Position numbers and translations under genes: made by a program. DNA of 64,000 nucleotides, taken from a phage. Positions within the stretch are counted from its first letter, which is position 1, and every line of letters begins with the position of its first letter. The notes beneath the pieces were generated by a model. The model had not been told where the DNA came from, did no database searches, and worked only from the letters and a program-made list of their open reading frames with translations. The stretch lies in sequence record PZ445431.1; one strand, given 5' to 3'. This document shows, in pieces, positions 6,957-42,088 of this stretch.

Positions 6957-7472
6957 TTGATAACACAAGATGAATTAAAAAGGATTCTGGAGTATAATCC
7001 AGATGAAGGAACATTTACTTGGTTAAATAACCAAGAAGTACACAATAAAGTAAGAGGACTACCTGCTGGTTGTTTAAAACCCCACTCAGTAGATCCTAAC
7101 CGAAAAGACTTAGTAATACAAATCAATGGTAAGAAATATCCTGCACAAAATATTGCTTTCCTGTACATGACAGGAAACTTACCTAAAGTTATGGTTGATC
7201 ATATAGATGGAGATTCACTAAACTATAAGTGGACTAATCTAAGAGAAGCAGACTGGCAGTTAAATAGTCAAAATAGAAAAACCAGTAAAAACAATATATT
7301 GGGTACTAAGAATATTCGGAAGAAAGGGTCTGGATTTCAAGTTAGAAAATCCATTAACGGAAAAGAATACGTGAAAACTCTTCCAACTCTCGAAGAGGCG
7401 ATAGAGTATCGAGATTCTTTAATCCTCTCTATAACCAAAGACCCAACACTACTTAGAAACACAGATAAATAG
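6957..7472 (+). CDS. HNH homing endonuclease with AP2-type DNA-binding domain (free-standing, between nrdA and nrdB)
   Basis: N-terminal ELK..LEYNPDEG.F.W motif, DHIDGD...N...NLR HNH core, AP2-like SGFQVRK..NGKEY; TTG start after AAGGAG; paralogous to 28254, 39420, 41576. Confidence 0.8.
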   Translation: MITQDELKRILEYNPDEGTFTWLNNQEVHNKVRGLPAGCLKPHSVDPNRKDLVIQINGKKYPAQNIAFLYMTGNLPKVMVDHIDGDSLNYKWTNLREADWQLNSQNRKTSKNNILGTKNIRKKGSGFQVRKSINGKEYVKTLPTLEEAIEYRDSLILSITKDPTLLRNTDK

Positions 7473-15713: not shown

Positions 15714-16168
15714 ATAAAATGAAGGCAGCTTTGCTTTTAATAGCTGCCCTAACCTATAGCTTCAATAGTCATGCGACCTACGACTCAAAGCAGATTGATT
15801 GCATTGCAAAAAATATCTACTTCGAAGCACGAGGTGAGGGCACTAAAGGAATGATCGCAGTTGCACAGGTTACTAAAAACCGTGTTAACTCTGGTACTTT
15901 TCCTAATTCTTACTGTAAAGTAGTATATCAGTCTAACCAGTTCTCTTGGGTGGCCAAGAGACCAAAAGTTGATAAAACCGATGAGGCTTGGCAAGTTGCT
16001 AAGAATTTAGCTAGAGTGATATACTACGTTGATTTACCACAAGATCCAACACATGGAGCGTTATACTTCCATAGTGGTAAAGATAAACCGTACTGGACAA
16101 AGAAGTTTAAGAAAACAACGAAGATTCAAGGCCATACGTTCTACAAGCCTGTGGTTAAGAAAACTTAA
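15701..16168 (+). CDS. secreted SleB-like cell-wall hydrolase (Hydrolase_2 family)
   Basis: Signal peptide MKAALLLIAALTYSFNSHA and the NIYFEARGEG...AVAQVTKNR signature; start probably ATG near 15719. Confidence 0.7.
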   Translation: MAGVNKMKAALLLIAALTYSFNSHATYDSKQIDCIAKNIYFEARGEGTKGMIAVAQVTKNRVNSGTFPNSYCKVVYQSNQFSWVAKRPKVDKTDEAWQVAKNLARVIYYVDLPQDPTHGALYFHSGKDKPYWTKKFKKTTKIQGHTFYKPVVKKT

Positions 16169-16176
16169 AAATTCGA

Positions 16177-16205
16177 TTGCTTAAAGCCTTAAATTTCTGT
16201 ATAAT
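16177..16205 (+). promoter_or_regulatory. T5-type early promoter
   Basis: TTGCTT 16177-16182, TATAAT 16200-16205. Confidence 0.7.
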
Positions 16206-16236
16206 ACTTTCATAAATTAATGAGAGGAAGCGAAAT

Positions 16237-16887: not shown

Positions 16888-17770
16888 AGATTCATAAATT
16901 AGAGAACAGCGAGCCGATTACGCTGAGTGAGTTTAGTGATTCCTACTAGGATAGCTATTCCACTGAATAGAGTCGGTGAGTTTAGAATGATCACCTGTTA
17001 GAGTTCCGAGTCCAGTCCGGTATATCCGGCCAAGTGACTAGAGTAACGAATATAGGTTCGAGACTTCTTGTAAAACTCGGGAGCTGTCCCGAAATCTCGT
17101 AAACTCTTCTCTAGTTTATGTTAGTGGGGTGTCGAACTGACTTATGTGATAACACTGCCGTCCTAGTATAAACGGTAATATCAAACCGTAACTGGTGGAA
17201 GATGCAGGTTCGAATCCTGCGGTCGGAAAGAATCAGATAACTCGGGCTTATACCGGATAAGCATTCGCTGCTGGAGTACATACTATGACGGTTCAGGAGG
17301 TACGCCACCTGATCAGTATTAGGTTAGAATCGAAACAGCTAAACCACGAGGAAACCTGACGGCCTCAACCAAACTCGGAACTCGGGATCACTGCCTAGTG
17401 TGTGCCCCGTTTAACCTGAGACTAGGCATCCAGCTTCGCATCGAAAATCGGAGGTGCGATTCTAACAGACCGCGTGAATATGAGAGTGGGAAACGCTGAC
17501 ATGAGAGATGTCACTAATGGTGCCCAATAGTACAGGTAATTCGCGATAATTCCTGTTGAGCGGCAGCAGTAGGCTGGGAGTCATGACCTAAGCCTAACCG
17601 AGTTCTTCACATACGGAGAACATAACCACAAAGTCACCCTGACTTAAACTGGAAGATATTGTCTGACGGAAGGGCTGCAGAGCTTAATCTGAGGGGGCTG
17701 ACCCTACCTACCATCGGGTATCTTTAAGAGCTTTTTCGAGAGTTCTTAAAAATACCTAACAAAAGGAATC
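16888..17770 (+). ncRNA. candidate structured non-coding RNA region (no ORF >=60 aa on the sense strand)
   Basis: About 0.88 kb directly downstream of consensus promoter 16859-16887; contains tRNA-like T-arm GCAGGTTCGAATCCTGC (17204-17220) without a pairing acceptor stem and several short hairpins. Confidence 0.35.
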
Positions 17771-19612: not shown

Positions 19613-19752
19613 TAAGGCAAAAGAAAAGCCCATAAGTTATTCAACTAAGGTCTTTAGTATTTAATTCTTTAGAATCATATACTATTATTTCAGCAACAAC
19701 GTGCTGCCCTTAAGTGCCCTGCGATTTTCCTCTAAAAAGTTAAAAAATTCGA

Positions 19753-19781
19753 TTGCTTGAATGCTAAATTCTCTGTATAAT
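19753..19781 (+). promoter_or_regulatory. T5-type early promoter upstream of nadR-like gene
   Basis: TTGCTT 19753-19758, TATAAT 19776-19781. Confidence 0.7.
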
Positions 19782-19811
19782 ATATTTATAAATTTGAGAG
19801 AGGAATCAAAT

Positions 19812-21580: not shown

Positions 21581-21593
21581 CAGAAATTTTCAC

Positions 21594-21622
21594 TTGCTTA
21601 ATATAGAAAATTTCTGTATAAT
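21594..21622 (+). promoter_or_regulatory. T5-type early promoter
   Basis: TTGCTT 21594-21599, TATAAT 21617-21622. Confidence 0.7.
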
Positions 21623-21652
21623 ATATTTATAAATTTGAGAGAGGAATCAAAT

Positions 21653-23241: not shown

Positions 23242-23271
23242 CTCCTCCAAGCAGAAATTTTAAAAATGTAC

Positions 23272-23301
23272 TTGCTTTTTACTTAAGATTTCTGCTATAA
23301 T
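23272..23301 (+). promoter_or_regulatory. T5-type early promoter (N18 spacing)
   Basis: TTGCTT 23272-23277, TATAAT 23296-23301. Confidence 0.6.
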
Positions 23302-23330
23302 AGTTATATAAGTTGATGAGAGGAATCAGA

Positions 23331-23597: not shown

Positions 23598-23642
23598 TTT
23601 GATTAACTGATACAGCACTGAGCAAGTTCTTTAAAATTTGAC

Positions 23643-23671
23643 TTGCTCAGTCCTTCAAAACTTGATATAAT
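23643..23671 (+). promoter_or_regulatory. T5-type early promoter driving tRNA-Tyr/Glu cluster
   Basis: TTGCTC 23643-23648, TATAAT 23666-23671. Confidence 0.65.
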
Positions 23672-23735
23672 AGTTATCTAATTTGGAAAACATATTTAAA
23701 AGTGTTTAAACTAGTATTTGAATATTTCTAAATAT

Positions 23736-24087: not shown

Positions 24088-24366
24088 ATGCTGATGCATC
24101 CTGAAAACTTCTTTATTTACTGTGCGGATAAGTCACTGAAACGCAGAATTAACAAAGTCTATCATTATCGTGCTAGTCAACAGCCTTATGTTTATGCTTT
24201 TGATGGAGATTACATCCCACTAGAACAGTTGGCCTGTGATTACATGGTTTTGAAGAACTTTGACGAGACAAAGATCTCAAGCGTTCATAATCGACAGAAC
24301 CCGTTAACGTGGAAATATAAGAAGAAAAAGAAAGGCATCAAATTCTTAAAAAATGTAGTTGCTTAA
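24088..24366 (+). CDS. hypothetical protein (about 92 aa)
   Basis: GAAGGAG RBS then ATG; 3' end overlaps the next promoter. Confidence 0.5.
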   Translation: MLMHPENFFIYCADKSLKRRINKVYHYRASQQPYVYAFDGDYIPLEQLACDYMVLKNFDETKISSVHNRQNPLTWKYKKKKKGIKFLKNVVA

Positions 24367-24387
24367 CCGCTTAAAGTTCTGTATAAT
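24359..24387 (+). promoter_or_regulatory. T5-type early promoter embedded in the 3' end of a CDS
   Basis: TTGCTT 24359-24364, TATAAT 24382-24387. Confidence 0.65.
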
Positions 24388-24416
24388 TATTACATAAATT
24401 GAACTGGAGAAGCAAC

Positions 24417-24641
24417 ATGACAGAACAAGAATTGAAAGAACGTAAGCTGGTAATGCTTCGCTTACTAAACATTTTCTCTGGTATGGATGGTGGTATTGAC
24501 TTCATTCAACTACGCACTTTTGTAGAAGAAGCAGAAGGCGAGGCTATCACTAGGATTCTTAAACATATGGGTTTGTTACTAGATGCTGCTAATGTGGCTA
24601 CTCAATATAAACTCGAAGATTTACCGGAGCGTGTTAAATGA
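24417..24641 (+). CDS. hypothetical protein (74 aa)
   Basis: ATG after conserved leader; track start 24399 lies inside the leader. Confidence 0.55.
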   Translation: MTEQELKERKLVMLRLLNIFSGMDGGIDFIQLRTFVEEAEGEAITRILKHMGLLLDAANVATQYKLEDLPERVK

Positions 24642-24829
24642 AAATGTTAGTTAAATTTAAGTGTTGTGGTTCTGAACATATTTTCACTCGTTATAGAGAG
24701 TTTAAGATGTGTGAGTGCGGTAAATCAGGCTACGATGCTGGAGATGGCTATTATGCTAGATCTATAGGACATTCTAAAGATCTAGAGTTTACTAATCTCG
24801 AAAAGCAAGATAAATCGACCGTTGGCTGA
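24638..24829 (+). CDS. hypothetical Cys-rich small protein (63 aa)
   Basis: CC...CxC cluster; overlapping ATGA coupling. Confidence 0.5.
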   Translation: MKMLVKFKCCGSEHIFTRYREFKMCECGKSGYDAGDGYYARSIGHSKDLEFTNLEKQDKSTVG

Positions 24830-24978: not shown

Positions 24979-25084
24979 CCATATTCTGTGTAGAGTTAAG
25001 TAAACCGGTAGCCAACCAGCTATCATTGCTGATATCGAATTCAGTCACAGATACCATTTTTCATTAACAACTGAGGAAATAGAT

Positions 25085-25270
25085 ATGACAACTCGTGCAA
25101 TTGCTCGACTAGAAGCTGATCGTGATAATCTGATTAATAATATTAAGGTTCGTGGTAATATTATTAAGGCTCTGAAAGCTGAACTTCTTGAAGAACTTCA
25201 AGGTCAAGTAGAGCGTCGTGAAGCTCTAAAAGAGGTTGAGGAAGCTATCGAAAAACTCAAAACTGAGTAA
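25085..25270 (+). CDS. hypothetical coiled-coil protein (61 aa)
   Basis: GAGGAAA RBS. Confidence 0.5.
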   Translation: MTTRAIARLEADRDNLINNIKVRGNIIKALKAELLEELQGQVERREALKEVEEAIEKLKTE

Positions 25271-25273
25271 ATT

Positions 25274-25855
25274 ATGCACGGAATATCCTTACCCATTCCA
25301 GGGTTTGAGGAGTACTTAGTAAGTTTGGATGGGTTAGTATTTAGTATCAAATCAAACAAAATACTAACCCAAATAACCAGTAATTACGGATACTTATCTA
25401 TACGTCTCCATAAAAATGGTCAACAGAGAAATACCGGTGTACATAGGATTTTAGCATGTGCATTTAAGAAATTACCAAGTCTAGACTCTGAACTAGAAGT
25501 TGACCATATTAACACAGACATTACTTATTGGGGTCTTAATAACTTACAAGTGCTCACAAAAGAGCAGCATCTAGAAAAGACTTTAAAAGATAAAGGATTT
25601 AGTAAACTAAACCATGATAATTGTTGTAAGGATTGTGGTAAAGCTATTTCTTTAAAAGCTGAAAAATGTCAGGAGTGCTCTTCACATAAACCAAAAGATA
25701 TCTCTATAACTAAAGAAATAATCGAGGTTACAGTAAGAGAGCTAGGCTGGTCAGGTGCAGGGAGAAAGTTAAGTTATTCAGATAATGGGTTGCGTAAAAG
25801 ATACACTTCTTTAGGAGGCAATCCTAAAGAACTTAAAAAGTTAAAGGTACTATAG
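25274..25855 (+). CDS. HNH homing endonuclease (NUMOD-type N-terminus)
   Basis: IPGFEEYLVSLDGLVFS N-terminal motif and VDHINTD...NNLQVL HNH core; stop codon lies inside the acceptor stem of the next tRNA. Confidence 0.75.
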   Translation: MHGISLPIPGFEEYLVSLDGLVFSIKSNKILTQITSNYGYLSIRLHKNGQQRNTGVHRILACAFKKLPSLDSELEVDHINTDITYWGLNNLQVLTKEQHLEKTLKDKGFSKLNHDNCCKDCGKAISLKAEKCQECSSHKPKDISITKEIIEVTVRELGWSGAGRKLSYSDNGLRKRYTSLGGNPKELKKLKVL

Positions 25856-25917
25856 TCTAACGGTTAGGATACTCCCCTGTCACGGGAGAGGTAGGGTTTC
25901 GATTACCCTTAGTACCG
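25846..25917 (+). tRNA. tRNA-Asp (anticodon GUC)
   Basis: Perfect acceptor GGTACTA/TAGTACC, anticodon arm CTCCC-CTGTCAC-GGGAG, T-arm AGGGT-TTCGATT-ACCCT, encoded CCA; 5' end overlaps the HNH gene stop. Confidence 0.75.
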
Positions 25918-25926
25918 CCAAATTAT

Positions 25927-26000
25927 ACATCCATAGCTCAATTGGTTAGAGCTACCGCCTCTTAAGCGGTAGGTTCTAGGTTCAAGTCCTTCATTGGAGA
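25927..26000 (+). tRNA. tRNA-Lys-like (anticodon CUU); acceptor/T stems imperfect
   Basis: Canonical D-arm GCTCAATTGGTTAGAGC and anticodon arm ACCGC-CTCTTAA-GCGGT; acceptor pairing poor by eye. Confidence 0.4.
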
Positions 26001-26010
26001 CCAAACAATT

Positions 26011-26084
26011 GCGGGTTAGATCTTTGGTAGAGATCGCTAGTCTCATAAGCTAGAAAGAGGTAGGTTCGATTCCTGCACCCGCTT
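26011..26084 (+). tRNA. tRNA with CAU anticodon (second copy)
   Basis: Acceptor GCGGGTT/CACCCGC region, anticodon arm CTAGT-CTCATAA-GCTAG, T-arm GTAGG-TTCGATT-CCTGC, encoded CCA. Confidence 0.6.
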
Positions 26085-26108
26085 CCAATTTAATAGAAGG
26101 ATTTCGAA

Positions 26109-26273
26109 ATGAAATTATTTCGTTTAAAAGTAAGTGATTTACGTTCTAGCAAAGATCGTAAGAAGTATCCACTAGCCCATTACGGTAAAGATGAAAACGA
26201 AGTGATGGCGGAATTTGGTATTAATCACCCTTACTTAAAAGTTTATTCTATTAAGGAAGTCTATGCTAATTAA
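26109..26273 (+). CDS. hypothetical small protein (54 aa)
   Basis: AAGGA RBS then ATG; not in track (<60 aa). Confidence 0.4.
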   Translation: MKLFRLKVSDLRSSKDRKKYPLAHYGKDENEVMAEFGINHPYLKVYSIKEVYAN

Positions 26274-26736
26274 TAAAGTTTTAGCTGCCTTAAACCTTCC
26301 TGATAACTTCATTATAGATGATAAGCTCATAAGAGCTTATATGAGCAAATATAACGAAATTTCAGGTAAAGAAGGTAAGTTAAAAACTTCAGAGTTTAGA
26401 TTCTGTTATCGAATGGCAGCCTTAAATCTCTTAAAATATAAAAGGGAGCATAAAATACCTATAACGGAAGGTTTTGTATATGTAATTGGTAATCCAGCAT
26501 GGCCAGGCATGTATAAAATAGGTATGACTATAGATGTGAATGAGAGGTTAACAAGTTATCAAACTTATTCACCTAATAGAGACTACAAGCTATACCATTT
26601 CAGATTTTCGTCGGATAAAAGACGTACAGAGAAAGAATTACATAATCTTCTTAAAGATTATAGAGTATCTGGAGAATGGTTTGAAGTACCTGTACTAGAT
26701 GCTTTTAAATTATTAGTAGAAAAATTGGATTGCTAG
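26263..26736 (+). CDS. T5orf172-domain (GIY-YIG-like) protein, putative homing endonuclease
   Basis: GFVYVIGNPAWPGMYKIGMTIDVNERL matches the T5orf172/GIY-YIG-like core; 3' end overlaps the next tRNA acceptor stem. Confidence 0.6.
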   Translation: MLINKVLAALNLPDNFIIDDKLIRAYMSKYNEISGKEGKLKTSEFRFCYRMAALNLLKYKREHKIPITEGFVYVIGNPAWPGMYKIGMTIDVNERLTSYQTYSPNRDYKLYHFRFSSDKRRTEKELHNLLKDYRVSGEWFEVPVLDAFKLLVEKLDC

Positions 26737-26801
26737 CTCAACTGGATAAGAGTAGCGGACCTTTAATCCGTCAGTTCTGGGTTCGAATCCCAGGCAATCC
26801 A
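26727..26801 (+). tRNA. tRNA, anticodon UUU by eye (Lys) with C at position 33
   Basis: Perfect acceptor GGATTGC/GCAATCC, T-arm CTGGG-TTCGAAT-CCCAG, encoded CCA. Confidence 0.55.
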
Positions 26802-26808
26802 CCAAATT

Positions 26809-26879
26809 GCTCGGTTAGTTTAATGGGAGAACCCCGTCTTTACACGGCGGTTGCGATAGTTCGATTCTATCACCGAGTA
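26809..26879 (+). tRNA. tRNA-like gene with apparent 6-nt anticodon loop (anticodon unresolved)
   Basis: Acceptor GCTCGGT/ACCGAGT, perfect T-arm GATAG-TTCGATT-CTATC, encoded CCA; only CCGT/ACGG pairs around loop CTTTAC. Confidence 0.45.
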
Positions 26880-26906
26880 CCACTCAACTAAAATAAGGAA
26901 TTGCAA

Positions 26907-27143
26907 ATGCAATTATCATCTAAAGTTCAAGGTTTCTTCGCACATGCAACAGCAGAATTTGCTATTAGCAAGGGTTGGGATTTTGAGCAAGAACTTTCTG
27001 AGTTCTATAAAGATATAGATATGAATACGCCATACATGGGACTCTCCACTGGTCAAGAGATCACAGAAGGCGATGTGTTCAAGGCAAGTCAAGGTGAGGT
27101 AACACCTAGTTTTGCCGCTTTTTTGGAGTGGCTTCACAATTAA
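26907..27143 (+). CDS. hypothetical protein (78 aa)
   Basis: AAGGAA RBS; second in-frame ATG chosen for spacing. Confidence 0.5.
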   Translation: MQLSSKVQGFFAHATAEFAISKGWDFEQELSEFYKDIDMNTPYMGLSTGQEITEGDVFKASQGEVTPSFAAFLEWLHN

Positions 27144-27252
27144 AGAAGAAGCTCCAGATGATGATGTATTTATGCAAAGCATGCACTCTGGGAGTTCTGA
27201 TATGTTATTTGTTAAAGATGTACGACATATCCAAGAAGTGGTAAAAACGCAG

Positions 27253-27281
27253 TTGCTTAATGCTTAATTTCTTGTTATAAT
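27253..27281 (+). promoter_or_regulatory. T5-type early promoter driving ORF-free/tRNA-like segment
   Basis: TTGCTT 27253-27258, TATAAT 27276-27281. Confidence 0.7.
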
Positions 27282-27284
27282 ATT

Positions 27285-27615
27285 TATATAAATTGATGCG
27301 AAAATAGCTGCCTAGATACCAGGTGTATGACGTCTACACTAGCAGAGCTACCGAAAAAGAGATCCTCAGGATAAACGTCGTAGCAAAATTAGTCTGGTAT
27401 CCATTAATTTAGTTCACTAAGGTATTAGCTCGACCTAGGACTGGCTGCCAAAAAGCACGATCCCTACGATTTGGGAGAAGTTCTAGATTAGTCCACTAGA
27501 TTCAGCGGCAACTGAATAGTGTATCGGGTTTGTGAAGAGCAGCTATTCTCTACTGGCTAATGTCTGAGGTTAGTACGCACACCGAGCTAATAGCCTTAGT
27601 AAACTTAAAGAATTT
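27285..27615 (+). ncRNA. candidate non-coding RNA (ORF-free segment downstream of consensus promoter)
   Basis: About 330 nt with no ORF >=60 aa after promoter 27253-27281; long-range complement GATACCAG (27308) / CTGGTATC (27394) and hairpin ATTCAG-CGGCAA-CTGAAT. Confidence 0.35.
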
Positions 27616-27688
27616 GGGCGAATAGTGTCAGCGGGAGCACACCAGACTTGCAAGTCTGGTAGGGAGGGTTCGAGTCTCTCTTTGTCCA
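27616..27688 (+). tRNA. tRNA-like gene with non-canonical anticodon loop (6 or 8 nt around TTGCAA)
   Basis: Acceptor GGGCGAA/TTTGTCC (two G-U), D-stem GTGT/ACAC, stem CCAGAC/GTCTGG, T-arm GAGGG-TTCGAGT-CTCTC, encoded CCA. Confidence 0.45.
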
Positions 27689-27706
27689 CCAAATTAAAAA
27701 GAATGC

Positions 27707-27780
27707 GCGCGATTGACGGAATAGGTATACGTGTCAGCCTTAGAAGTTGAATTTTGAGGGTTCGAATCCCTTGTCGCGCA
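27707..27780 (+). tRNA. tRNA, anticodon UAG by eye (Leu-type anticodon on a short-variable-arm body)
   Basis: Perfect acceptor GCGCGAT/GTCGCGC, anticodon arm TCAGC-CTTAGAA-GTTGA, T-arm GAGGG-TTCGAAT-CCCTT, A73, encoded CCA. Confidence 0.55.
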
Positions 27781-27908
27781 CCAAATTTGATGGTCAGAGT
27801 AAATTAAACCTACTATCTCGGTTGAGCTGTTTTAATGGATTCGAATCCCAGCGAGGCGTAACTGCCTGGCGTGATAGAGGCATCATTCCACTAACATTGG
27901 AAAAACTA

Positions 27909-28139
27909 ATGAAACGAAAATTAAAAAAGTCTTATATAATTAAGATAAATAAGCTACGAAGTAGGGCAAAAGGATGGCCACTTCGAATATTAATTGCGGA
28001 TAACCATATTAGATACCATGCGGAACAACATCATTACAAACAGTGGGAGTCATACTGTCGCTCAAAAGCAGGTCGTTTAGATGGATCTTATGAGCTTCTA
28101 TTTGGTAAGAAGCCTACTAGATTAGCTTTAGGTAAGTAA
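27909..28139 (+). CDS. hypothetical basic protein (76 aa)
   Basis: Internal ATG of track ORF 27747..28139; the upstream part of that ORF overlaps tRNA-like sequence. Confidence 0.35.
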   Translation: MKRKLKKSYIIKINKLRSRAKGWPLRILIADNHIRYHAEQHHYKQWESYCRSKAGRLDGSYELLFGKKPTRLALGK

Positions 28140-28144
28140 TACTT

Positions 28145-28235
28145 GGAAAAGCAAATAGACTGGCGACTAAACCCGATTGGAAATCGGTTGAGTAATAGCA
28201 ATATTGCCTTATGGGTTCAACTCCCATCTTTTCCG
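28145..28235 (+). tRNA. tRNA-Ser (anticodon GGA), type II
   Basis: Perfect acceptor GGAAAAG/CTTTTCC, anticodon arm CCCGA-TTGGAAA-TCGGT, long variable arm, T-arm ATGGG-TTCAACT-CCCAT, encoded CCA. Confidence 0.7.
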
Positions 28236-28253
28236 CCAAATATTGGAGTATAG

Positions 28254-28769
28254 ATGCTAACACAACAAGAATTAAAATCCGTGTTGTTATATAAACCAGA
28301 TACTGGAGAGTTTTTCTGGAAATATAGATCTGATTTAGATAGTCAATGGAATAGTAAATATGCTGGAACTAGGGCAGGATTTATTAATGAACTAGGCTAT
28401 TGGAAGATAACTCTAGGAAATACTAGCTGGTTAGCACATCGTCTAGCATTCTTATACATGACTGGGGAAATACCAGATCTAATTGACCACAAGGATCAAG
28501 ATAAGTCCAATACTAAATGGGATAACTTACGAATAGCCACTGTATCACAGAATCAGGCTAATGCTAAATTAAGGGTAGATAATACCTCTGGGTACAAAAA
28601 TGTAACTTGGCATAAGCAAAGAAATAAGTGGAAAGTAGAAGTACGTAAAGATGGCAAACTCCATTATGGTGGACTTTTTACAGAACTAGATAAAGCTGTA
28701 AATAAAGCTAATAATCTTAGACGTGAGTTATTCGGGGAATTTGCAGTATATGAAGAGTTTATGGGGTAG
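28254..28769 (+). CDS. HNH homing endonuclease with AP2-type DNA-binding domain
   Basis: Same architecture as 6957..7472 (ELK..LYKPDTG.F.W, IDHKDQDKSNTKWDNLR, AP2-like SGYKNVTWHK); stop lies inside the next tRNA acceptor stem. Confidence 0.8.
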   Translation: MLTQQELKSVLLYKPDTGEFFWKYRSDLDSQWNSKYAGTRAGFINELGYWKITLGNTSWLAHRLAFLYMTGEIPDLIDHKDQDKSNTKWDNLRIATVSQNQANAKLRVDNTSGYKNVTWHKQRNKWKVEVRKDGKLHYGGLFTELDKAVNKANNLRRELFGEFAVYEEFMG

Positions 28770-28856
28770 GTCAATCCAACGGCTGGCGCTGGACTCCGAC
28801 TTGAAATCGGTTGATCGTAGTGATACGGTGTAAGGGTTCGATCCCCTTACCTACCT
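28765..28856 (+). tRNA. tRNA-Ser (anticodon UGA), type II
   Basis: Perfect acceptor GGTAGGT/ACCTACC, anticodon loop CTTGAAA, long variable arm, T-arm AAGGG-TTCGATC-CCCTT, encoded CCA. Confidence 0.7.
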
Positions 28857-28879
28857 CCAATTAACTATAAGGAATCCTT

Positions 28880-29053
28880 ATGAGCAAAACAGCTACTGTA
28901 ACAATGAAGGATGGTACAAAATTTAAAGCATGTCTTCATGAAACAGATAATGGATGGAAGGCTTATTTGCCACACCTAGATTCCACTGGGTATGGAATGA
29001 CCCAACGTGAAGCTATTGTTGATGCTTTAAATGAGGCTTCCGCTGGTTTATAA
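28880..29053 (+). CDS. hypothetical small protein (57 aa)
   Basis: TAAGGAA RBS then ATG; not in track (<60 aa). Confidence 0.4.
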   Translation: MSKTATVTMKDGTKFKACLHETDNGWKAYLPHLDSTGYGMTQREAIVDALNEASAGL

Positions 29054-29060
29054 AAATTCT

Positions 29061-29191
29061 TGGAATATGCCGGAATTGGTAGACGGGACTGCCGAATAGG
29101 TTTACTAGGAACATCCACTCCTAGAAATATACCTTAAAAGCGGTTGAGTTAAATGGTATAACTCATGAAGGTTCAAGTCCTTCTATTCCTT
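29061..29191 (+). tRNA. tRNA-like element of abnormal length (about 131 nt, or 85 nt from alternative 5' end); possible insertion-containing or degenerate tRNA
   Basis: Leu-like D-arm TGCCGGAATTGGTAGACGGG near 5' end, perfect T-arm GAAGG-TTCAAGT-CCTTC at 3' end, acceptor candidates pair 6/7, no encoded CCA. Confidence 0.3.
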
Positions 29192-29312
29192 GATACATCA
29201 ATGGCTCAAAGTGTAACGGTGCTATTTGATGCTCTTGGCAAGACTTCCCCGACATGCGTTCGGGAGTAAGCTGCTAAGACTAGAGTAGAAGAGTTTCAAC
29301 AAGACAACGATA

Positions 29313-29384
29313 GCTCTTAAAGCATTGCTGGCGATGCAGTTGCCTTGTAAGCATCTGAACCGGGTTCGATTCCTAGTGGGAGCA
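29313..29384 (+). tRNA. tRNA-Thr (anticodon UGU)
   Basis: Acceptor GCTCTTA/TGGGAGC (two G-U), D-arm GCAT...ATGC, anticodon arm GTTGC-CTTGTAA-GCATC, T-loop TTCGATT, encoded CCA. Confidence 0.55.
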
Positions 29385-29403
29385 CCAAAATTAAAAAATT
29401 CAT

Positions 29404-29432
29404 TTGCCTTCTCTCTTATTTCTTGTTATTAT
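29404..29432 (+). promoter_or_regulatory. early promoter variant (TTGCCT-N17-TATTAT)
   Basis: -35 at 29404-29409, -10 at 29427-29432. Confidence 0.55.
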
Positions 29433-29462
29433 ATTTATATAAATTAATGAGAGGGAAACCAA

Positions 29463-32274: not shown

Positions 32275-32291
32275 TTTCGTAAATAATTCAT

Positions 32292-32320
32292 TTGCTAAAA
32301 CCCTCTCCTTTTGATATAAT
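32292..32320 (+). promoter_or_regulatory. T5-type early promoter
   Basis: TTGCTA 32292-32297, TATAAT 32315-32320. Confidence 0.7.
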
Positions 32321-32350
32321 ATTTATATAAATTGATGAGAGGGCTTTGAA

Positions 32351-39015: not shown

Positions 39016-39423
39016 ATGTCAGATCGTTACTATACTCAGATGGCTAACCATTACAATATGGCTCCGTATGAATTGAACATCGCATTACGTGACCTCGATT
39101 CACCAGAGCGTGCAAAACTTGAGAAAAAGGCGGGAATTCGTATGTCTAGCAAGGGCAAGAAACTTACTCGTATTGACTTAAATACCATGTTAATGGAAGA
39201 GCTTGGCGTGAATATTGAAGGTCAGAAGTTGCCTCTCAATGTTCTTGAAACGATGCTGGATAAAGTCAAAAAGAAAACCTATAAGAAAGTACAAGTACCG
39301 GAAGGCAGGCTAAAAGCCCCTTATCAGGCTGCTGTATCTGAGTGCTTAGGTGCTACCTTAGATCTTAGCACTGCAACTGTTAAAGTGATGCGTGCGTTTT
39401 TAGAGGCAGTTAATAAATTGTGA
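39016..39423 (+). CDS. hypothetical protein (135 aa)
   Basis: ATG after conserved leader. Confidence 0.55.
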   Translation: MSDRYYTQMANHYNMAPYELNIALRDLDSPERAKLEKKAGIRMSSKGKKLTRIDLNTMLMEELGVNIEGQKLPLNVLETMLDKVKKKTYKKVQVPEGRLKAPYQAAVSECLGATLDLSTATVKVMRAFLEAVNKL

Positions 39424-39947
39424 TTACCCAAGAAAGATTGAAGGAGCTTCTAGAGTACAATCCAGATACAGGGATATTTATATGGAAGAGCCGAAAGATA
39501 GATAGAAGTGGTTTTAACAAGCAATTCGCAGGAAAAGTTGCTGGCAATCCTCAAAATAACGGTTATATCAATATTACTGTTGATTCCGAAGTTCATGGGG
39601 CACATAGATTAGCTTTTCTTTACATGGAAGGCTATATGCCTGCAAGGGTAGACCACGAAAACATGGTTAGGTCTGATAACAAATGGCTTAACCTACGAGA
39701 AGCTACAGTCTCTCAAAATGGTGCTAATGCGTTAAAGTATTCTAACAATAGTTCTGGATATAAGAACGTATACTGGACAAAGAAAACGTGTAAATGGCAA
39801 GTACAGGTTATGAAAGATGGTAAATCCTACTCGGGAGGATACTTCACAAACCTCAAAGATGCTGTAGAAACTGCCAATGAGTTAAGATTTGAATTATTTG
39901 GGGAATTTGCCCTATATGAACCATTTAAAGGAGATAAACATGAGTAA
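39420..39947 (+). CDS. HNH homing endonuclease with AP2-type DNA-binding domain
   Basis: GTG start; ERLKELLEYNPDTGIFIW, VDHENMVRSDNKWLNLR, AP2-like SGYKNVYWTKK; paralogue of 6957, 28254, 41576. Confidence 0.8.
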   Translation: MITQERLKELLEYNPDTGIFIWKSRKIDRSGFNKQFAGKVAGNPQNNGYINITVDSEVHGAHRLAFLYMEGYMPARVDHENMVRSDNKWLNLREATVSQNGANALKYSNNSSGYKNVYWTKKTCKWQVQVMKDGKSYSGGYFTNLKDAVETANELRFELFGEFALYEPFKGDKHE

Positions 39948-40713: not shown

Positions 40714-41576
40714 TGAAAAAAGAATTTAACCTGCATGAAATGTTAGTAGTACCAGACGATGTTAACCTGTTCTTCGTAGGAGATATTCACGGCTGTAATG
40801 ATATGCTGGAAGATGCTCTTAAACTAGCAGGATATAAAGAAAAGCGTGACTATGTTGTCTGTGTTGGCGACTTAATTGACCGTGGCCCGCAGAACTTACA
40901 GGTTCTAGCCAAATTCTTATATAACCCACGTTTCCGTAGCGTTCGTGGCAACCATGATCAGTTTATGATTGCCGGGGATTATGCCAACTGGATGTATAAT
41001 GGTGGAATGTGGGCAATGAATGATCTGGATACCGATACAATTAAAGGTATCGCAGAAGATATGGCAGTTAAAATGCCAGTATTCATGACTGTACTCCATC
41101 GTGGCAAGAAATACGGTATTGTTCATGGTGGAATACCATTCCAGTATAAAGATGCGGGATTCGATGTACATACACCTAATTGGGACGATATTATTGATCA
41201 TATCGCTGCAAGTGAAAATGATCCTAATGATCATCCTAGTTATTACATTGAGCCATATCTATGGGATCGTGATGTAATTCAGGAAATTGGGTTCATCCTA
41301 GCACGTGGAGGAGCTACTCATGAGTACTTCAATCGTTATGCTAGCTTTAAGAATCAGTTAGTAGTTGAAGTACCTCCAGTTAAAGGTGTGGACTATGTAT
41401 TCCATGGGCACACAGGTGTACCATACCCAATCCTGTACCAGAACCGCGTATACCTAGATACTGGCGGTGTGTTCAACGGGAAGTTGACGGTTGCGCAAGT
41501 TAATGATGAAGCCGGTAAGATTATGACATTTACCACAGATAAAAATGATAGCTGTGGTGTACAGAGGATTCTGTAA
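40713..41576 (+). CDS. serine/threonine protein phosphatase (calcineurin-like metallophosphoesterase, lambda-PPase type)
   Basis: GDIHGC, GDLIDRG, GNHD motifs. Confidence 0.8.
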   Translation: MKKEFNLHEMLVVPDDVNLFFVGDIHGCNDMLEDALKLAGYKEKRDYVVCVGDLIDRGPQNLQVLAKFLYNPRFRSVRGNHDQFMIAGDYANWMYNGGMWAMNDLDTDTIKGIAEDMAVKMPVFMTVLHRGKKYGIVHGGIPFQYKDAGFDVHTPNWDDIIDHIAASENDPNDHPSYYIEPYLWDRDVIQEIGFILARGGATHEYFNRYASFKNQLVVEVPPVKGVDYVFHGHTGVPYPILYQNRVYLDTGGVFNGKLTVAQVNDEAGKIMTFTTDKNDSCGVQRIL

Positions 41577-42088
41577 TGGCCGGTATTTCTCAGGAATACC
41601 TGAAGAGTAGACTAACCTATAATCCTGAAACATGGGAGTTTCGGTGGAAGCCTAACCCAAATGCTAGTAAAACATGGAATACTAGGTTTGCTGGTAAAGA
41701 AGCAGGTACTCTAAATAAAACTACCGGATATATCAATTTAACAATTGATGGGGTTAAGCATGGTGCACATAGAATGGCTTTCTTATACATGGAGGGCTAT
41801 TTACCTACTAAAGTGGATCACAAAGATACAATAAGAACAAATAATGCTTGGAGTAACCTTAGGGCTGCTGATAATGCTCAGAATACTTGGAATGCTGGTA
41901 TGAAAAGCTCCAATACTTCAGGATTTAAAGGTGTTTACTTAGATAAGCGTATAAATAAATATGTAGGTAGAGTTCGCTTTAGAGACAAAAGGTTCTCTAC
42001 TAAATATTATGAAAATGCTGAGGATGCAGCTAAAGAGTTGGAAATCCTTAGAGAACAGTTACATAAAGAATTTGCGAGGAATGAATAA
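41576..42088 (+). CDS. HNH homing endonuclease with AP2-type DNA-binding domain
   Basis: Same family as 6957, 28254, 39420; KVDHKDTIRTNNAWSNLR HNH core and AP2-like SGFKGVYLDK. Confidence 0.8.
   Translation: MAGISQEYLKSRLTYNPETWEFRWKPNPNASKTWNTRFAGKEAGTLNKTTGYINLTIDGVKHGAHRMAFLYMEGYLPTKVDHKDTIRTNNAWSNLRAADNAQNTWNAGMKSSNTSGFKGVYLDKRINKYVGRVRFRDKRFSTKYYENAEDAAKELEILREQLHKEFARNE

What the first reader, a model, noticed from the sequence alone, without database searches (positions are those of the whole stretch)
25274..28856. Endonuclease genes inserted flush against tRNA genes (overlapping acceptor stems)
The HNH gene 25274-25855 ends inside the acceptor stem of tRNA-Asp; the T5orf172 gene 26263-26736 ends inside the next tRNA; HNH-AP2 28254-28769 starts 19 nt after tRNA-Ser(GGA) and its stop lies inside tRNA-Ser(UGA). 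Such exact abutment implies endonuclease targeting of conserved tRNA sequence and coupled processing of mRNA and tRNA from one transcript.
Basis: seen in the sequence. Interest (0 to 1): 0.5.

Follow-up and report, generated by a model that had tools for sequence, protein, structure and literature searches.

The report
Homing endonuclease genes overlapping phage tRNAs
Three selfish nuclease genes in the tRNA cluster of a T5-like coliphage sit in tiny gaps just upstream of tRNA genes and take their stop codons from inside those tRNAs. This layout is real and non-random, but it is already documented in phages T4 and T5.

Summary
The window is a near-copy of Escherichia phage TrudiRoth (T5-like, Epseptimavirus).

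- CDS 25274-25855 (NUMOD4-HNH) stops at positions 8-10 (T8-A9-G10) of tRNA-Asp.
- CDS 26263-26736 (T5orf172, GIY-YIG clan) stops at positions 8-10 of tRNA-Lys(UUU).
- CDS 28254-28769 (HNH_3) starts 15 nt after tRNA-Ser(GGA) and stops at positions 3-5 of tRNA-Ser(UGA).

All three are present in some relatives and absent in others, with sharp junctions. Empty sites have spacers of only 2-14 nt. Where an empty copy of the same tRNA allele exists (sites 1 and 3), homology resumes 5-11 nt upstream of the tRNA. The last codons and the stop therefore come from the tRNA leader and the tRNA itself.

Across T5-like phages, nuclease ORFs overlap the downstream tRNA in 9 of 10 junction types, against 3 of 15 for other ORFs. 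The gene-plus-tRNA cassette is far better conserved than the surrounding backbone.

T5 itself (hegC, hegD, T5.069), phage 5 (hegB) and T4 (segB) show the same layout. The SegB literature already proposes tRNA-gene targeting and processing-coupled control.

Verdict: new members of a known kind. Co-transcription is well supported. tRNA targeting and an RNase P throttle remain inferences.

The parts
24339..24413 (+). Homolog of T5 early promoter P14b. Probable start of the transcription unit holding tRNA-Cys/Asn, the HNH gene, tRNA-Asp/Lys/fMet, the T5orf172 gene and tRNA-Lys/Val.
   Evidence: 89% identity over 75/75 nt to promoter P14b annotated in NC_005859. Inferred by homology only.
25085..25270 (+). 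DUF7337 gene. This conserved backbone gene forms the left border of insertion site 1.
   Evidence: Pfam DUF7337 4.9e-30. Homology with HEG-less relatives breaks at 25271-25277.
25274..25855 (+). Freestanding homing-endonuclease gene (NUMOD4 + HNH, I-HmuI-like). It is a paralog of T5 hegC/hegD and phage 5 hegB (F-TflIII). Its last codons and stop come from the tRNA-Asp leader and tRNA positions 1-10.
   Evidence: Pfam NUMOD4 3.5e-5 and HNH_3 1.5e-3. PHROG HNH 8.5e-22. 36-41% full-length identity to hegB/C/D. Family profile hits I-HmuI 1u3e at 5.7e-16. 58 records carry it, always followed by tRNA-Asp.
25846..25920 (+). tRNA-Asp(GUC), 'allele A'. It overlaps the HNH CDS by 10 nt, and the stop is T8-A9-G10.
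   Evidence: ARAGORN and Rfam 63.1 bits. Allele A shares only the anticodon arm with the allele B of HEG-less relatives.
25928..26003 (+). tRNA-Lys(CUU). It is a chimera of the two copies present in the TrudiRoth record: 5' end of copy 1 joined to 3' end of copy 2. The acceptor stem is mismatched.
   Evidence: Rfam score is only 37.2 bits. The same form occurs in phage beppo.
26109..26273 (+). orf54, a conserved backbone gene and the left border of insertion site 2. Its last 11 nt overlap the T5orf172 start.
   Evidence: In HEG-less relatives it ends 1-2 nt before tRNA-Lys(UUU) by ARAGORN coordinates.
26263..26736 (+). Freestanding homing-endonuclease gene of the T5orf172/MUG113 (GIY-YIG clan) family. 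It is under strong purifying selection.
   Evidence: Pfam MUG113 3.4e-18 and T5orf172 6.5e-15. Conserved GxxY...KxG...R...E core in 5 paralogs. dN/dS 0.05 at dS about 1.07 against phage SB13. 86 records carry gene plus tRNA.
26727..26804 (+). tRNA-Lys(UUU), 'allele A'. It overlaps the T5orf172 CDS by 10 nt, and the stop is T8-A9-G10.
   Evidence: ARAGORN and Rfam 59.9 bits. It differs from the HEG-less allele in the acceptor and anticodon stems.
27243..27298 (+). Homolog of T5 promoter P13b. Probable start of the unit holding RNA2H, tRNA-Ala/Leu, tRNA-Ser(GGA), the HNH_3 gene and tRNA-Ser(UGA).
   Evidence: 100% identity over 56 nt to P13b of NC_005859. Inferred by homology.
28145..28238 (+). 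tRNA-Ser(GGA), the left border of insertion site 3. It is identical to the T5 allele that lies downstream of hegC in T5.
   Evidence: ARAGORN. 100% identity to T5 tRNA-Ser2.
28254..28769 (+). Freestanding HNH_3 homing-endonuclease gene with a possible AP2-like C-terminal domain. It is inserted in what is a 14-nt tRNA-tRNA spacer in relatives. A GGAG Shine-Dalgarno sequence lies in the 15-nt leader.
   Evidence: Pfam HNH_3 3.8e-13 and AP2 E = 0.029. PHROG_99 HNH 1.2e-61. Only 7 records carry it. The empty site in phage SuperGirl is shown.
28765..28859 (+). tRNA-Ser(UGA). It overlaps the HNH_3 CDS by 5 nt, and the stop is at acceptor positions 3-5.
   Evidence: Rfam tRNA-Sec model 38.3 bits. Cloverleaf minimum-free-energy fold. 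GenBank annotation. Identity bands imply roughly 126 HEG-less phages carry it at >=95% identity, and in the listed rows homology starts 7 nt upstream.

Best explanation
These are three unrelated freestanding homing-endonuclease genes (HEGs) that have colonised the tRNA cluster of a T5-like phage. Each sits in what is a 2-14-nt spacer in HEG-less relatives, directly 5' of a tRNA gene. None has a stop codon of its own. Each reads through the last few nucleotides of the tRNA leader into the tRNA and ends at a stop inside it: T8-A9-G10 in two cases, acceptor positions 3-5 in the third.

Shown here:
- The overlaps themselves.
- The nuclease domains.
- Presence/absence among relatives with sharp junctions.
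- Much higher conservation of the HEG-plus-tRNA cassette than of the backbone.
- The same layout at a dozen or so HEG-tRNA junctions in Demerecviridae, involving two nuclease folds.

Inferred:
1. The HEGs have no promoter of their own and are transcribed as part of tRNA precursors.
2. RNase P cleavage at the tRNA 5' end removes the stop codon. Full-length translation with normal termination is then possible only on unprocessed precursor, which keeps the level of a potentially toxic nuclease low.
3. The enzymes cut HEG-less alleles in or next to the neighbouring tRNA gene. Repair then copies the HEG together with the linked tRNA allele, as shown for T4 SegB.
For: - Overlaps.
- Domains.
- Site 1 empty sites: rokbiter has the DUF7337 stop, a 9-10-nt spacer, then an unrelated tRNA-Asp allele. 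NR01 and PS3-1 have the same tRNA-Asp allele without the HEG, and homology resumes 11 nt and 5 nt upstream of the tRNA.
- Site 2 empty site: in beppo, orf54 ends 2-3 nt before a different tRNA-Lys allele.
- Site 3 empty site: SuperGirl has tRNA-Ser(GGA), 14 nt, then tRNA-Ser(UGA). In the listed HEG-less rows, homology starts 7 nt upstream of the tRNA.
- Cassette transfer: against locus L006, the DUF7337 gene is 75.8% identical but the HNH gene 97.4% and tRNA-Asp 100%. Against rokbiter, orf54 through tRNA-Val is 99-100% identical and the next stretch 81%. Mosaic breakpoints fall at 25271/2, 26263/4, 26728-34 and 28758 in several genomes.
- Linkage: 86 records carry T5orf172 plus this tRNA-Lys allele. 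Every T5-like tRNA-only match listed was at about 78-81% identity.
- Function: dN/dS is 0.05, and the overlap is conserved at dS about 1.07.
- Generality: five T5orf172 paralogs lie 5' of tRNA-Lys, Glu, Asn, Leu(UAG) and Pro. HNH paralogs lie 5' of tRNA-Asp, Ser(UGA), Leu(UAG), Pro, Ser(GGA) and Gln. Fisher p = 0.001.
- Co-transcription: promoter homologs occur only at 24339-24413, 27243-27298 and 29383-29458.
- Precedent: SegB recognises the T-psi-C motif of tRNA genes. Its stop codon is separated from the ORF by tRNA-Arg processing, and the same was proposed for T5 F-Tfl (PMC2330249).
Against: - There are no biochemical, transcript-end or cross data for these three genes.
- Overlap with a downstream tRNA also occurs for 3 of 15 non-nuclease ORFs.
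- Other HEG paralogs in the window are equally tightly packed against protein genes. Compaction alone therefore explains 'flush'.
- The HEG-linked tRNA alleles also exist without the HEG. tRNA-Asp allele A occurs in about 12 records. tRNA-Ser(UGA) allele A is mostly HEG-less. The window's own tRNA-Ser(GGA) is the hegC-linked T5 allele without hegC.
- Many tRNAs never seen next to a HEG are also multi-allelic.
- The count of HEG-less tRNA-Lys allele A copies could not be fixed exactly.
- Promoter assignment is by homology to annotation. The generic consensus scan was uninformative.
Confidence: 0.7

Rival explanations
1. Permissive-site or compaction explanation. The genes are homing endonucleases, but their targets have nothing to do with tRNA sequence. 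They accumulate directly 5' of tRNAs because such an insertion disturbs no ribosome-binding site or translational coupling, and RNase P still releases the tRNA whatever the leader. The cluster has almost no intergenic DNA, so any insertion ends flush. The ORF then simply runs to the first stop, which is quickly met in a tRNA. The overlap has no regulatory role.
For: - Empty spacers are only 2-14 nt.
- 11 of 22 tRNAs in the window carry TAG at positions 8-10, and most have early stops in at least two of the three frames.
- Non-nuclease ORFs also overlap tRNA-Cys, Val and Ser by 10-16 nt.
- HNH_3 paralogs at 6957-7472 and 41576-42088 are packed 1-8 nt from neighbouring ORFs.
- HEG-linked tRNA alleles occur without the HEG.
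Against: - The downstream neighbour is a tRNA for 11 of 12 HEGs, against about 45% for other CDSs. Upstream neighbours are mixed. A tolerance argument predicts this too, so the point is not decisive.
- The overlap rate is 9 of 10 against 3 of 15.
- Two nuclease families converge on the same layout.
- SegB does recognise tRNA-gene sequence.
- The T5orf172 paralogs next to different tRNAs share a similar N-terminal region. This fits a shared generic target.
Confidence: 0.25
2. Domesticated function. The small nuclease-like proteins, especially the strongly conserved T5orf172 protein, are not selfish elements. They act together with the adjacent tRNA, for instance in tRNA-related counter-defence or in regulating the tRNA operon. 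This would explain the tight linkage and the purifying selection.
For: dN/dS is 0.05 over dS about 1.07 with an invariant linked tRNA-Lys allele. 86 records carry the gene with the same tRNA allele.
Against: - The gene is sporadically present among very close relatives, and most T5-like phages lack it.
- The cassette transfers into divergent backbones.
- The catalytic GIY-YIG-type core is conserved.
- Active HEGs that keep spreading are also expected to be under purifying selection.
- No domain points to tRNA binding.
Confidence: 0.04
3. Annotation artefact. The tRNA 5' ends or the CDS ends are misplaced and there is no real overlap.
For: ARAGORN did not call tRNA-Ser(UGA), and Rfam scores it below the gathering threshold.
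Against: - Two independent programs agree on the 5' ends of tRNA-Asp and tRNA-Lys.
- The acceptor stems pair only with those starts.
- There is no in-frame stop upstream of the tRNAs.
- The same overlaps are annotated in curated T5 and phage 5 records.
Confidence: 0.01

Closest known systems
[quoted passage not shown]
   Same: It is a freestanding HEG inside a phage tRNA cluster and is transcribed within the tRNA precursor. Its stop codon is separated from the ORF by 5' processing of the downstream tRNA. Homing co-converts neighbouring tRNA genes (PMC2330249).
   Different: SegB is a canonical GIY-YIG enzyme in a T4-like myovirus. Here there are one T5orf172-subfamily enzyme and two HNH enzymes in a T5-like siphovirus. 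Sequence homology to SegB was not tested. SegB's target (the T-psi-C motif) and its homing are experimentally shown, whereas nothing is shown for these genes.
T5 hegC, hegD, T5.069 and phage 5 hegB (the F-Tfl HNH endonucleases and the 172-aa T5orf172-family ORF)
   Same: They occupy the same genomic region and have the same layout. hegD overlaps tRNA-Gln2 by 23 nt, hegC overlaps tRNA-Ser(GGA) by 14 nt, T5.069 overlaps tRNA-Asn by 24 nt, and hegB overlaps tRNA-Pro by 8 nt. The window's HNH 25274-25855 is a 36-41% full-length paralog. Its T5orf172 gene is a 45% paralog of the 172-aa ORF in locus L007 that occupies the same position as T5.069.
   Different: The partner tRNAs differ: Asp, Lys(UUU) and Ser(UGA). 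The HNH_3 gene 28254-28769 belongs to another HNH lineage. phmmer against T5 hegA matched only the window's NUMOD4-HNH gene, not the HNH_3 gene. Phage 5 hegB has its own annotated promoter P13a, and no such homolog precedes the window's HEGs.
I-HmuI (SPO1 intron-encoded HNH nicking homing endonuclease, PDB 1u3e)
   Same: The N-terminal NUMOD4 + HNH module of the 25274-25855 family matches 1u3e residues 3-94 at E = 5.7e-16. The HNH_3 protein matches weakly.
   Different: I-HmuI is encoded in an intron within a DNA polymerase gene. These genes are freestanding and next to tRNAs. Their C-terminal zinc-ribbon and helical regions differ.
Nuclease genes at boundaries of genetic exchange between phages (Barth, Dunham and Seed 2023, PMC10448857)
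   Same: T5orf172 and HNH HEGs are enriched in T5-like phages and sit at mosaic breakpoints. Here the breakpoints coincide with HEG borders.
   Different: In the passages retrieved (keyword search only), that study does not address tRNA adjacency or stop codons inside tRNAs.

Membership tests
Freestanding homing endonuclease gene | Encodes a nuclease domain of a recognised homing-endonuclease family | tested here: met
   NUMOD4/HNH_3, T5orf172/MUG113 and HNH_3. PHROG HNH families. I-HmuI match at 5.7e-16. Conserved GIY-YIG-type core.
Freestanding homing endonuclease gene | Present or absent at the same locus among close relatives, with sharp junctions | tested here: met
   58, 86 and 7 records carry the three genes, out of roughly 445 T5-like records with the region. 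Junctions were mapped.
Freestanding homing endonuclease gene | Element and immediate flanks more similar between genomes than the backbone (horizontal spread or co-conversion) | tested here: met
   HNH 97.4% and tRNA-Asp 100% identical, against 75.8% for the adjacent DUF7337 gene. orf54 through tRNA-Val is 99-100% identical, against 81% downstream.
Freestanding homing endonuclease gene | Site-specific cleavage of the HEG-less allele and super-Mendelian inheritance in crosses | not testable with these tools
   Needs enzyme assays and co-infection crosses.
SegB-type HEG of a phage tRNA cluster | GIY-YIG-superfamily nuclease gene lying between genes of a tRNA cluster | tested here: met
   26263-26736 matches T5orf172/MUG113 and lies between orf54 and tRNA-Lys(UUU). 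Direct homology to SegB was not tested.
SegB-type HEG of a phage tRNA cluster | Stop codon at or inside the downstream tRNA, so that 5' processing separates it from the ORF | tested here: met
   Stops lie at tRNA positions 8-10, 8-10 and 3-5. The processing itself is inferred.
SegB-type HEG of a phage tRNA cluster | Recognition of a conserved tRNA-gene motif (T-psi-C stem-loop) as target | not testable with these tools
   Only indirect hints: tRNA-allele linkage and chimeric tRNAs at crossovers.
T5 F-Tfl / heg HNH family | Full-length homology to hegB/hegC/hegD (NUMOD4-HNH-zinc ribbon-C-terminal helices) | tested here: met
   36-41% identity over the whole length, with conserved DH...N...H and CxxC...CxxC. 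Applies to 25274-25855 only.
T5 F-Tfl / heg HNH family | Demonstrated site-specific endonuclease activity | not testable with these tools
   Akulenko et al. 2004 could not be read. It is cited only through PMC2330249 and PMC10644984.
HNH-AP2 endonuclease | HNH_3 catalytic domain | tested here: met
   HNH_3 at 3.8e-13, 49.3 bits.
HNH-AP2 endonuclease | AP2 DNA-binding domain | tested here: inconclusive
   Pfam AP2 E = 0.029, 15.1 bits against a 33.3-bit cut-off, residues 113-159.
tRNA gene (for 28765-28859, Ser-UGA) | Cloverleaf with 7-bp acceptor stem, anticodon loop, long variable arm and T arm | tested here: met
   The minimum-free-energy fold is a clean cloverleaf at -29.3 kcal/mol. Identity bands imply roughly 126 records carry it at >=95% identity. 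It is annotated in GenBank.
tRNA gene (for 28765-28859, Ser-UGA) | Detected by standard tRNA finders above threshold | tested here: inconclusive
   ARAGORN made no call. Rfam matched only the tRNA-Sec model at 38.3 bits, below the 47-bit gathering score. The accepted tRNA-Ser(GGA) behaves the same in Rfam (39 bits).

The most novel reading that the evidence does not exclude
The HEG-tRNA overlap is an evolved and general device rather than a packing accident. In Demerecviridae, HEGs of two nuclease folds systematically give up their own stop codons. RNase P maturation of the downstream tRNA then turns their mRNAs into non-stop messages, which acts as a built-in throttle on a toxic enzyme. The same HEGs would drive repeated replacement of the adjacent tRNA genes by linked, cleavage-resistant alleles. 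This would make HEGs a main cause of the striking multi-allelic diversity of phage tRNA genes, some of which are targets of host anticodon nucleases.
Probability: 0.25. Interest if true: 0.55.

Novelty: new member of a known kind. Interest (0 to 1): 0.33.

Why it matters
If the inferences hold, tRNA maturation would double as a post-transcriptional brake on selfish nucleases. Homing endonucleases would also be a main driver of allele turnover in phage tRNA clusters. That matters because phage tRNAs are now known to counter host tRNA-cleaving defences, as noted in PMC10644984.

In practice, the three sites give ready-made experimental pairs within the BASEL collection. TrudiRoth (HEG-plus) can be paired with SuperGirl (HEG-less at site 3) to test homing and RNase-P-coupled expression.

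As it stands, this is an ordinary and already annotated feature of T5-like genomes.

Tried and rejected
- IMG/VR scan with orf54 gave only 5 related loci. The comparison therefore rests on about 15 loci plus BLAST counts over the phage collection.
- The generic sigma-70 and terminator scan was uninformative: 28 promoter-like sites against 26.8 expected. I replaced it with homology to promoters annotated in T5.
- AlphaFold on the T5orf172 protein without an alignment gave pLDDT 47.5. No fold search was run on it.
- A profile of the T5orf172 paralogs found no solved-structure relative by sequence.
- Akulenko et al. 2004, which holds the F-Tfl cleavage data, is not in the library. What those enzymes cut could not be checked.
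- I tried to count HEG-less copies of the HEG-linked tRNA-Lys allele exactly. Short partial hits in mycobacteriophages blur the identity bands, so I claim only that no such copy was seen among listed rows.
- I checked whether ORF 27747-28139 is a hegC remnant. It has no Pfam domain, and I saw no similarity by eye.
- The annotation-artefact reading was rejected.

Full report
**What the window is.** Bases 25000-29000 match Escherichia phage TrudiRoth (Bas30, MZ501109; Demerecviridae, Epseptimavirus) at 100% identity in two pieces. The region is the T5-type tRNA cluster. ARAGORN finds 21 tRNAs, and Rfam adds tRNA-Ser(UGA) at 28765-28855.

**Check of the observation.**
- CDS 25274-25855 ends with TAG at 25853-25855, and tRNA-Asp starts at 25846. 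The two programs agree on this start.
- CDS 26263-26736 ends with TAG at 26734-26736, and tRNA-Lys(UUU) starts at 26727.
- In both cases the stop codon is tRNA positions 8-10 (T8-A9-G10), immediately after the 5' acceptor strand. 'Inside the acceptor stem' is therefore slightly off, but the 10-nt overlap is real.
- CDS 28254-28769 starts 15 nt after the CCA end of tRNA-Ser(GGA) at 28238. That is 19 nt after the Rfam end at 28234.
- It stops at 28767-28769, which is acceptor positions 3-5 of tRNA-Ser(UGA) (28765-28859).
- ARAGORN misses this tRNA and Rfam scores it below threshold. However, it folds into a clean long-arm cloverleaf. GenBank annotates it, and the identity bands imply roughly 126 phage genomes carry it nearly unchanged.
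- There is no in-frame stop upstream of any of the three tRNAs.

**What the genes are.**
- 25274-25855 has NUMOD4 and a weak HNH_3 hit. It is a 36-41% full-length paralog of T5 hegD, T5 hegC and phage 5 hegB (F-TflIII). The family profile matches the homing endonuclease I-HmuI at 5.7e-16.
- 26263-26736 is a T5orf172/MUG113 protein. The GIY-YIG-type core is conserved in five paralogs.
- 28254-28769 has a strong HNH_3 domain. Its AP2 hit is only sub-threshold, at E = 0.029.

**They are insertions into tiny spacers.**
- *Site 1.* In phage rokbiter and several IMG/VR relatives, the DUF7337 gene is followed after 9-10 nt by a tRNA-Asp that shares only the anticodon arm with the window's tRNA-Asp. 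Homology with the window breaks at the HNH start codon. In NR01 and PS3-1 the window's tRNA-Asp allele is present without the HNH gene. Homology resumes 11 nt and 5 nt upstream of the tRNA (AAAAGTTAAAG|GGTACTATAG).
- *Site 2.* In phage beppo, orf54 ends 2-3 nt before a tRNA-Lys(UUU) that differs from the window's in the acceptor and anticodon stems. In the window, the T5orf172 start codon lies inside the last 11 nt of orf54.
- *Site 3.* In phage SuperGirl, tRNA-Ser(GGA) and tRNA-Ser(UGA) are separated by 14 nt. In the listed HEG-less rows, homology with the window starts 7 nt before tRNA-Ser(UGA).
- At sites 1 and 3, where an empty copy of the same tRNA allele exists, the last two to five codons and the stop are supplied by the pre-existing tRNA leader and the tRNA. 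At site 2 no HEG-less copy of this tRNA-Lys allele was found, and homology with beppo resumes only inside the tRNA.
- In line with this, the hegB/C/D paralogs align up to '...PKELKK' and then have unrelated tails.

**Evidence of mobility.**
- The three genes occur in 58, 86 and 7 records respectively, out of roughly 445 T5-like records that share the region.
- Against locus L006, the DUF7337 gene is 75.8% identical, but the HNH gene 97.4% and tRNA-Asp 100%.
- Against rokbiter, orf54 through tRNA-Val is 99-100% identical and the next 400 nt about 81%.
- Mosaic breakpoints in seven relatives fall at the gene borders.
- The T5orf172 gene is under strong purifying selection: dN/dS 0.05 at dS about 1.07 against phage SB13. 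The overlap and the tRNA-Lys allele are unchanged between the two.
- Phage smaug carries a tRNA-Asp that is allele B in its 5' half and allele A in its 3' half, with the crossover in the shared anticodon arm.
- The window's own tRNA-Lys(CUU) is a similar chimera.

**Is the link with tRNAs more than packing?**
- The whole cluster is compact. Three non-nuclease ORFs also run 10-16 nt into tRNAs. HNH_3 paralogs elsewhere in the window are 1-8 nt from neighbouring protein ORFs. 'Flush' alone therefore means little.
- Even so, nuclease ORFs overlap the downstream tRNA in 9 of 10 junction types, against 3 of 15 for other ORFs (Fisher p = 0.001).
- The downstream neighbour of a nuclease gene is a tRNA in 11 of 12 cases, against about 45% for other CDSs. 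Upstream neighbours are mixed.
- Five T5orf172 paralogs precede tRNA-Lys, Glu, Asn, Leu(UAG) and Pro. HNH genes precede tRNA-Asp, Ser(UGA), Leu(UAG), Pro, Ser(GGA) and Gln.
- tRNA species that are HEG-adjacent in some genome are all multi-allelic: mean identity 0.79 against 0.89, p = 0.018. This rests on 9 genomes, and many non-adjacent tRNAs are multi-allelic too.

**Transcription.**
- Homologs of the promoters annotated in the T5 record occur at 24339-24413 (P14b), 27243-27298 (P13b, 100% identical) and 29383-29458 (P11). None lies directly in front of a HEG.
- No convincing terminator lies between the HEGs and the tRNAs.
- The HEG messages are thus most likely parts of tRNA precursors. RNase P would then cut them 7, 7 and 2 nt before their stop codons.
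- This step is an inference from established RNase P function. It matches what was proposed for segB and the F-Tfl genes (PMC2330249).

**Comparison with what is known.**
- The curated T5 record shows hegD overlapping tRNA-Gln2 by 23 nt, hegC overlapping tRNA-Ser(GGA) by 14 nt, and the 172-aa T5orf172-family ORF T5.069 overlapping tRNA-Asn by 24 nt.
- Phage 5 hegB overlaps tRNA-Pro by 8 nt.
- T4 SegB sits between two tRNA genes, recognises the T-psi-C motif of tRNA genes, and co-converts the tRNA cluster in crosses. Its stop codon is cut off by tRNA-Arg processing.
- HEGs at mosaic boundaries of T5-like phages were described by Barth et al. 2023.
- The finding is therefore three uncharacterised members of a known arrangement.
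- I have not seen three points stated elsewhere: the stop codon and C-terminal tail supplied by the tRNA leader and tRNA, the one-sided bias for the 5' side of tRNAs, and the linkage to particular tRNA alleles.

**Verdict.** The main rival is that sites 5' of tRNAs are simply tolerant of insertion in a genome without spare intergenic DNA.

Noticed in passing
window 25928-26003 (compare L001 4928-5004 and 5907-5983): The window lacks 979 bp present in the TrudiRoth GenBank record: tRNA-Gly, three small CDSs and one tRNA-Lys(CUU) copy. The remaining tRNA-Lys(CUU) is a chimera, with the 5' end of copy 1 joined to the 3' end of copy 2 across their shared core (62 of 77 positions identical). This leaves a mismatched acceptor stem. 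Phage beppo has the same form. It could be a natural deletion or an assembly collapse. My own coordinate arithmetic also suggests the window runs past the record's length, so it is not simply that record.
   Followed up: partly
L011 (Salmonella phage smaug) about 1482-1560: A chimeric, unannotated tRNA-Asp: the 5' half is the HEG-less allele B and the 3' half is the HEG-linked allele A. The crossover lies in the 20-nt anticodon arm that the two alleles share, and the acceptor strands do not pair.
   Followed up: partly
window 27423-27535, 29059-29202, 29203-29297, 24984-25056: Homologs of the T5 'stable RNAs of unknown function': RNA2H (98%), RNA1 (94%), RNA I (91%) and the tRNA-like RNA3 (97%). 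Rfam gives only a weak tRNA hit at 29123-29191 (23.9 bits). The RNA3 homolog overlaps the annotated CDS bas30_0107.
   Followed up: partly
window 27616-27691: ARAGORN reports this tRNA as 'tRNA-???' with a four-base anticodon (tgca). GenBank calls it tRNA-Ala(UGC). The anticodon arm reads CCAGA-CTTGCAAG-TCTGG, which is either an 8-nt loop or a 6-bp stem with a 6-nt loop.
   Followed up: no
window 16157-16229, 19733-19807, 21589-21648, 23253-23327, 23625-23695, 24339-24413, 27234-27301, 29383-29458, 32282-32343: A family of 55-75-nt repeats homologous to the early promoters annotated in T5 (P11, P13a/b, P14a/b, P15a-c), with TTGCTT...TATAAT-type boxes. They divide the tRNA cluster into short transcription units.
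   Followed up: partly
window 6957-7472, 39420-39947, 41576-42088: Three further paralogs of the HNH_3 endonuclease lie outside the tRNA cluster (phmmer 3e-19 to 2e-53). The first lies between a 797-aa and a 381-aa ORF. The third shares single-nucleotide overlaps with both neighbouring ORFs.
   Followed up: partly
L015 (phage T5) 2345-2420 and 2398-2979, minus strand: In T5 the tRNA-Gln2(CUG) gene overlapped by hegD (23 nt) is flagged as a pseudogene in the RefSeq record. This may be a case where the nuclease gene coexists with a damaged tRNA.
   Followed up: no
window 28145-28238: The window's tRNA-Ser(GGA) is 100% identical to the T5 allele that lies downstream of hegC in T5. Here it is preceded by a small non-nuclease ORF ending 5 nt upstream. 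Phage UTK0010 has the same HNH_3 gene next to a different tRNA-Ser(GGA) allele.
   Followed up: partly
window 17157-17228: A weak Rfam tRNA match (29.3 bits, right at the gathering score) that ARAGORN does not call.
   Followed up: no
window 24638-24829: A 63-aa ORF with a CxxC...CxC pattern and no nuclease domain runs 14 nt into tRNA-Cys. This overlap is conserved in most relatives. It shows that overlap with a tRNA is not limited to nuclease genes.
   Followed up: partly
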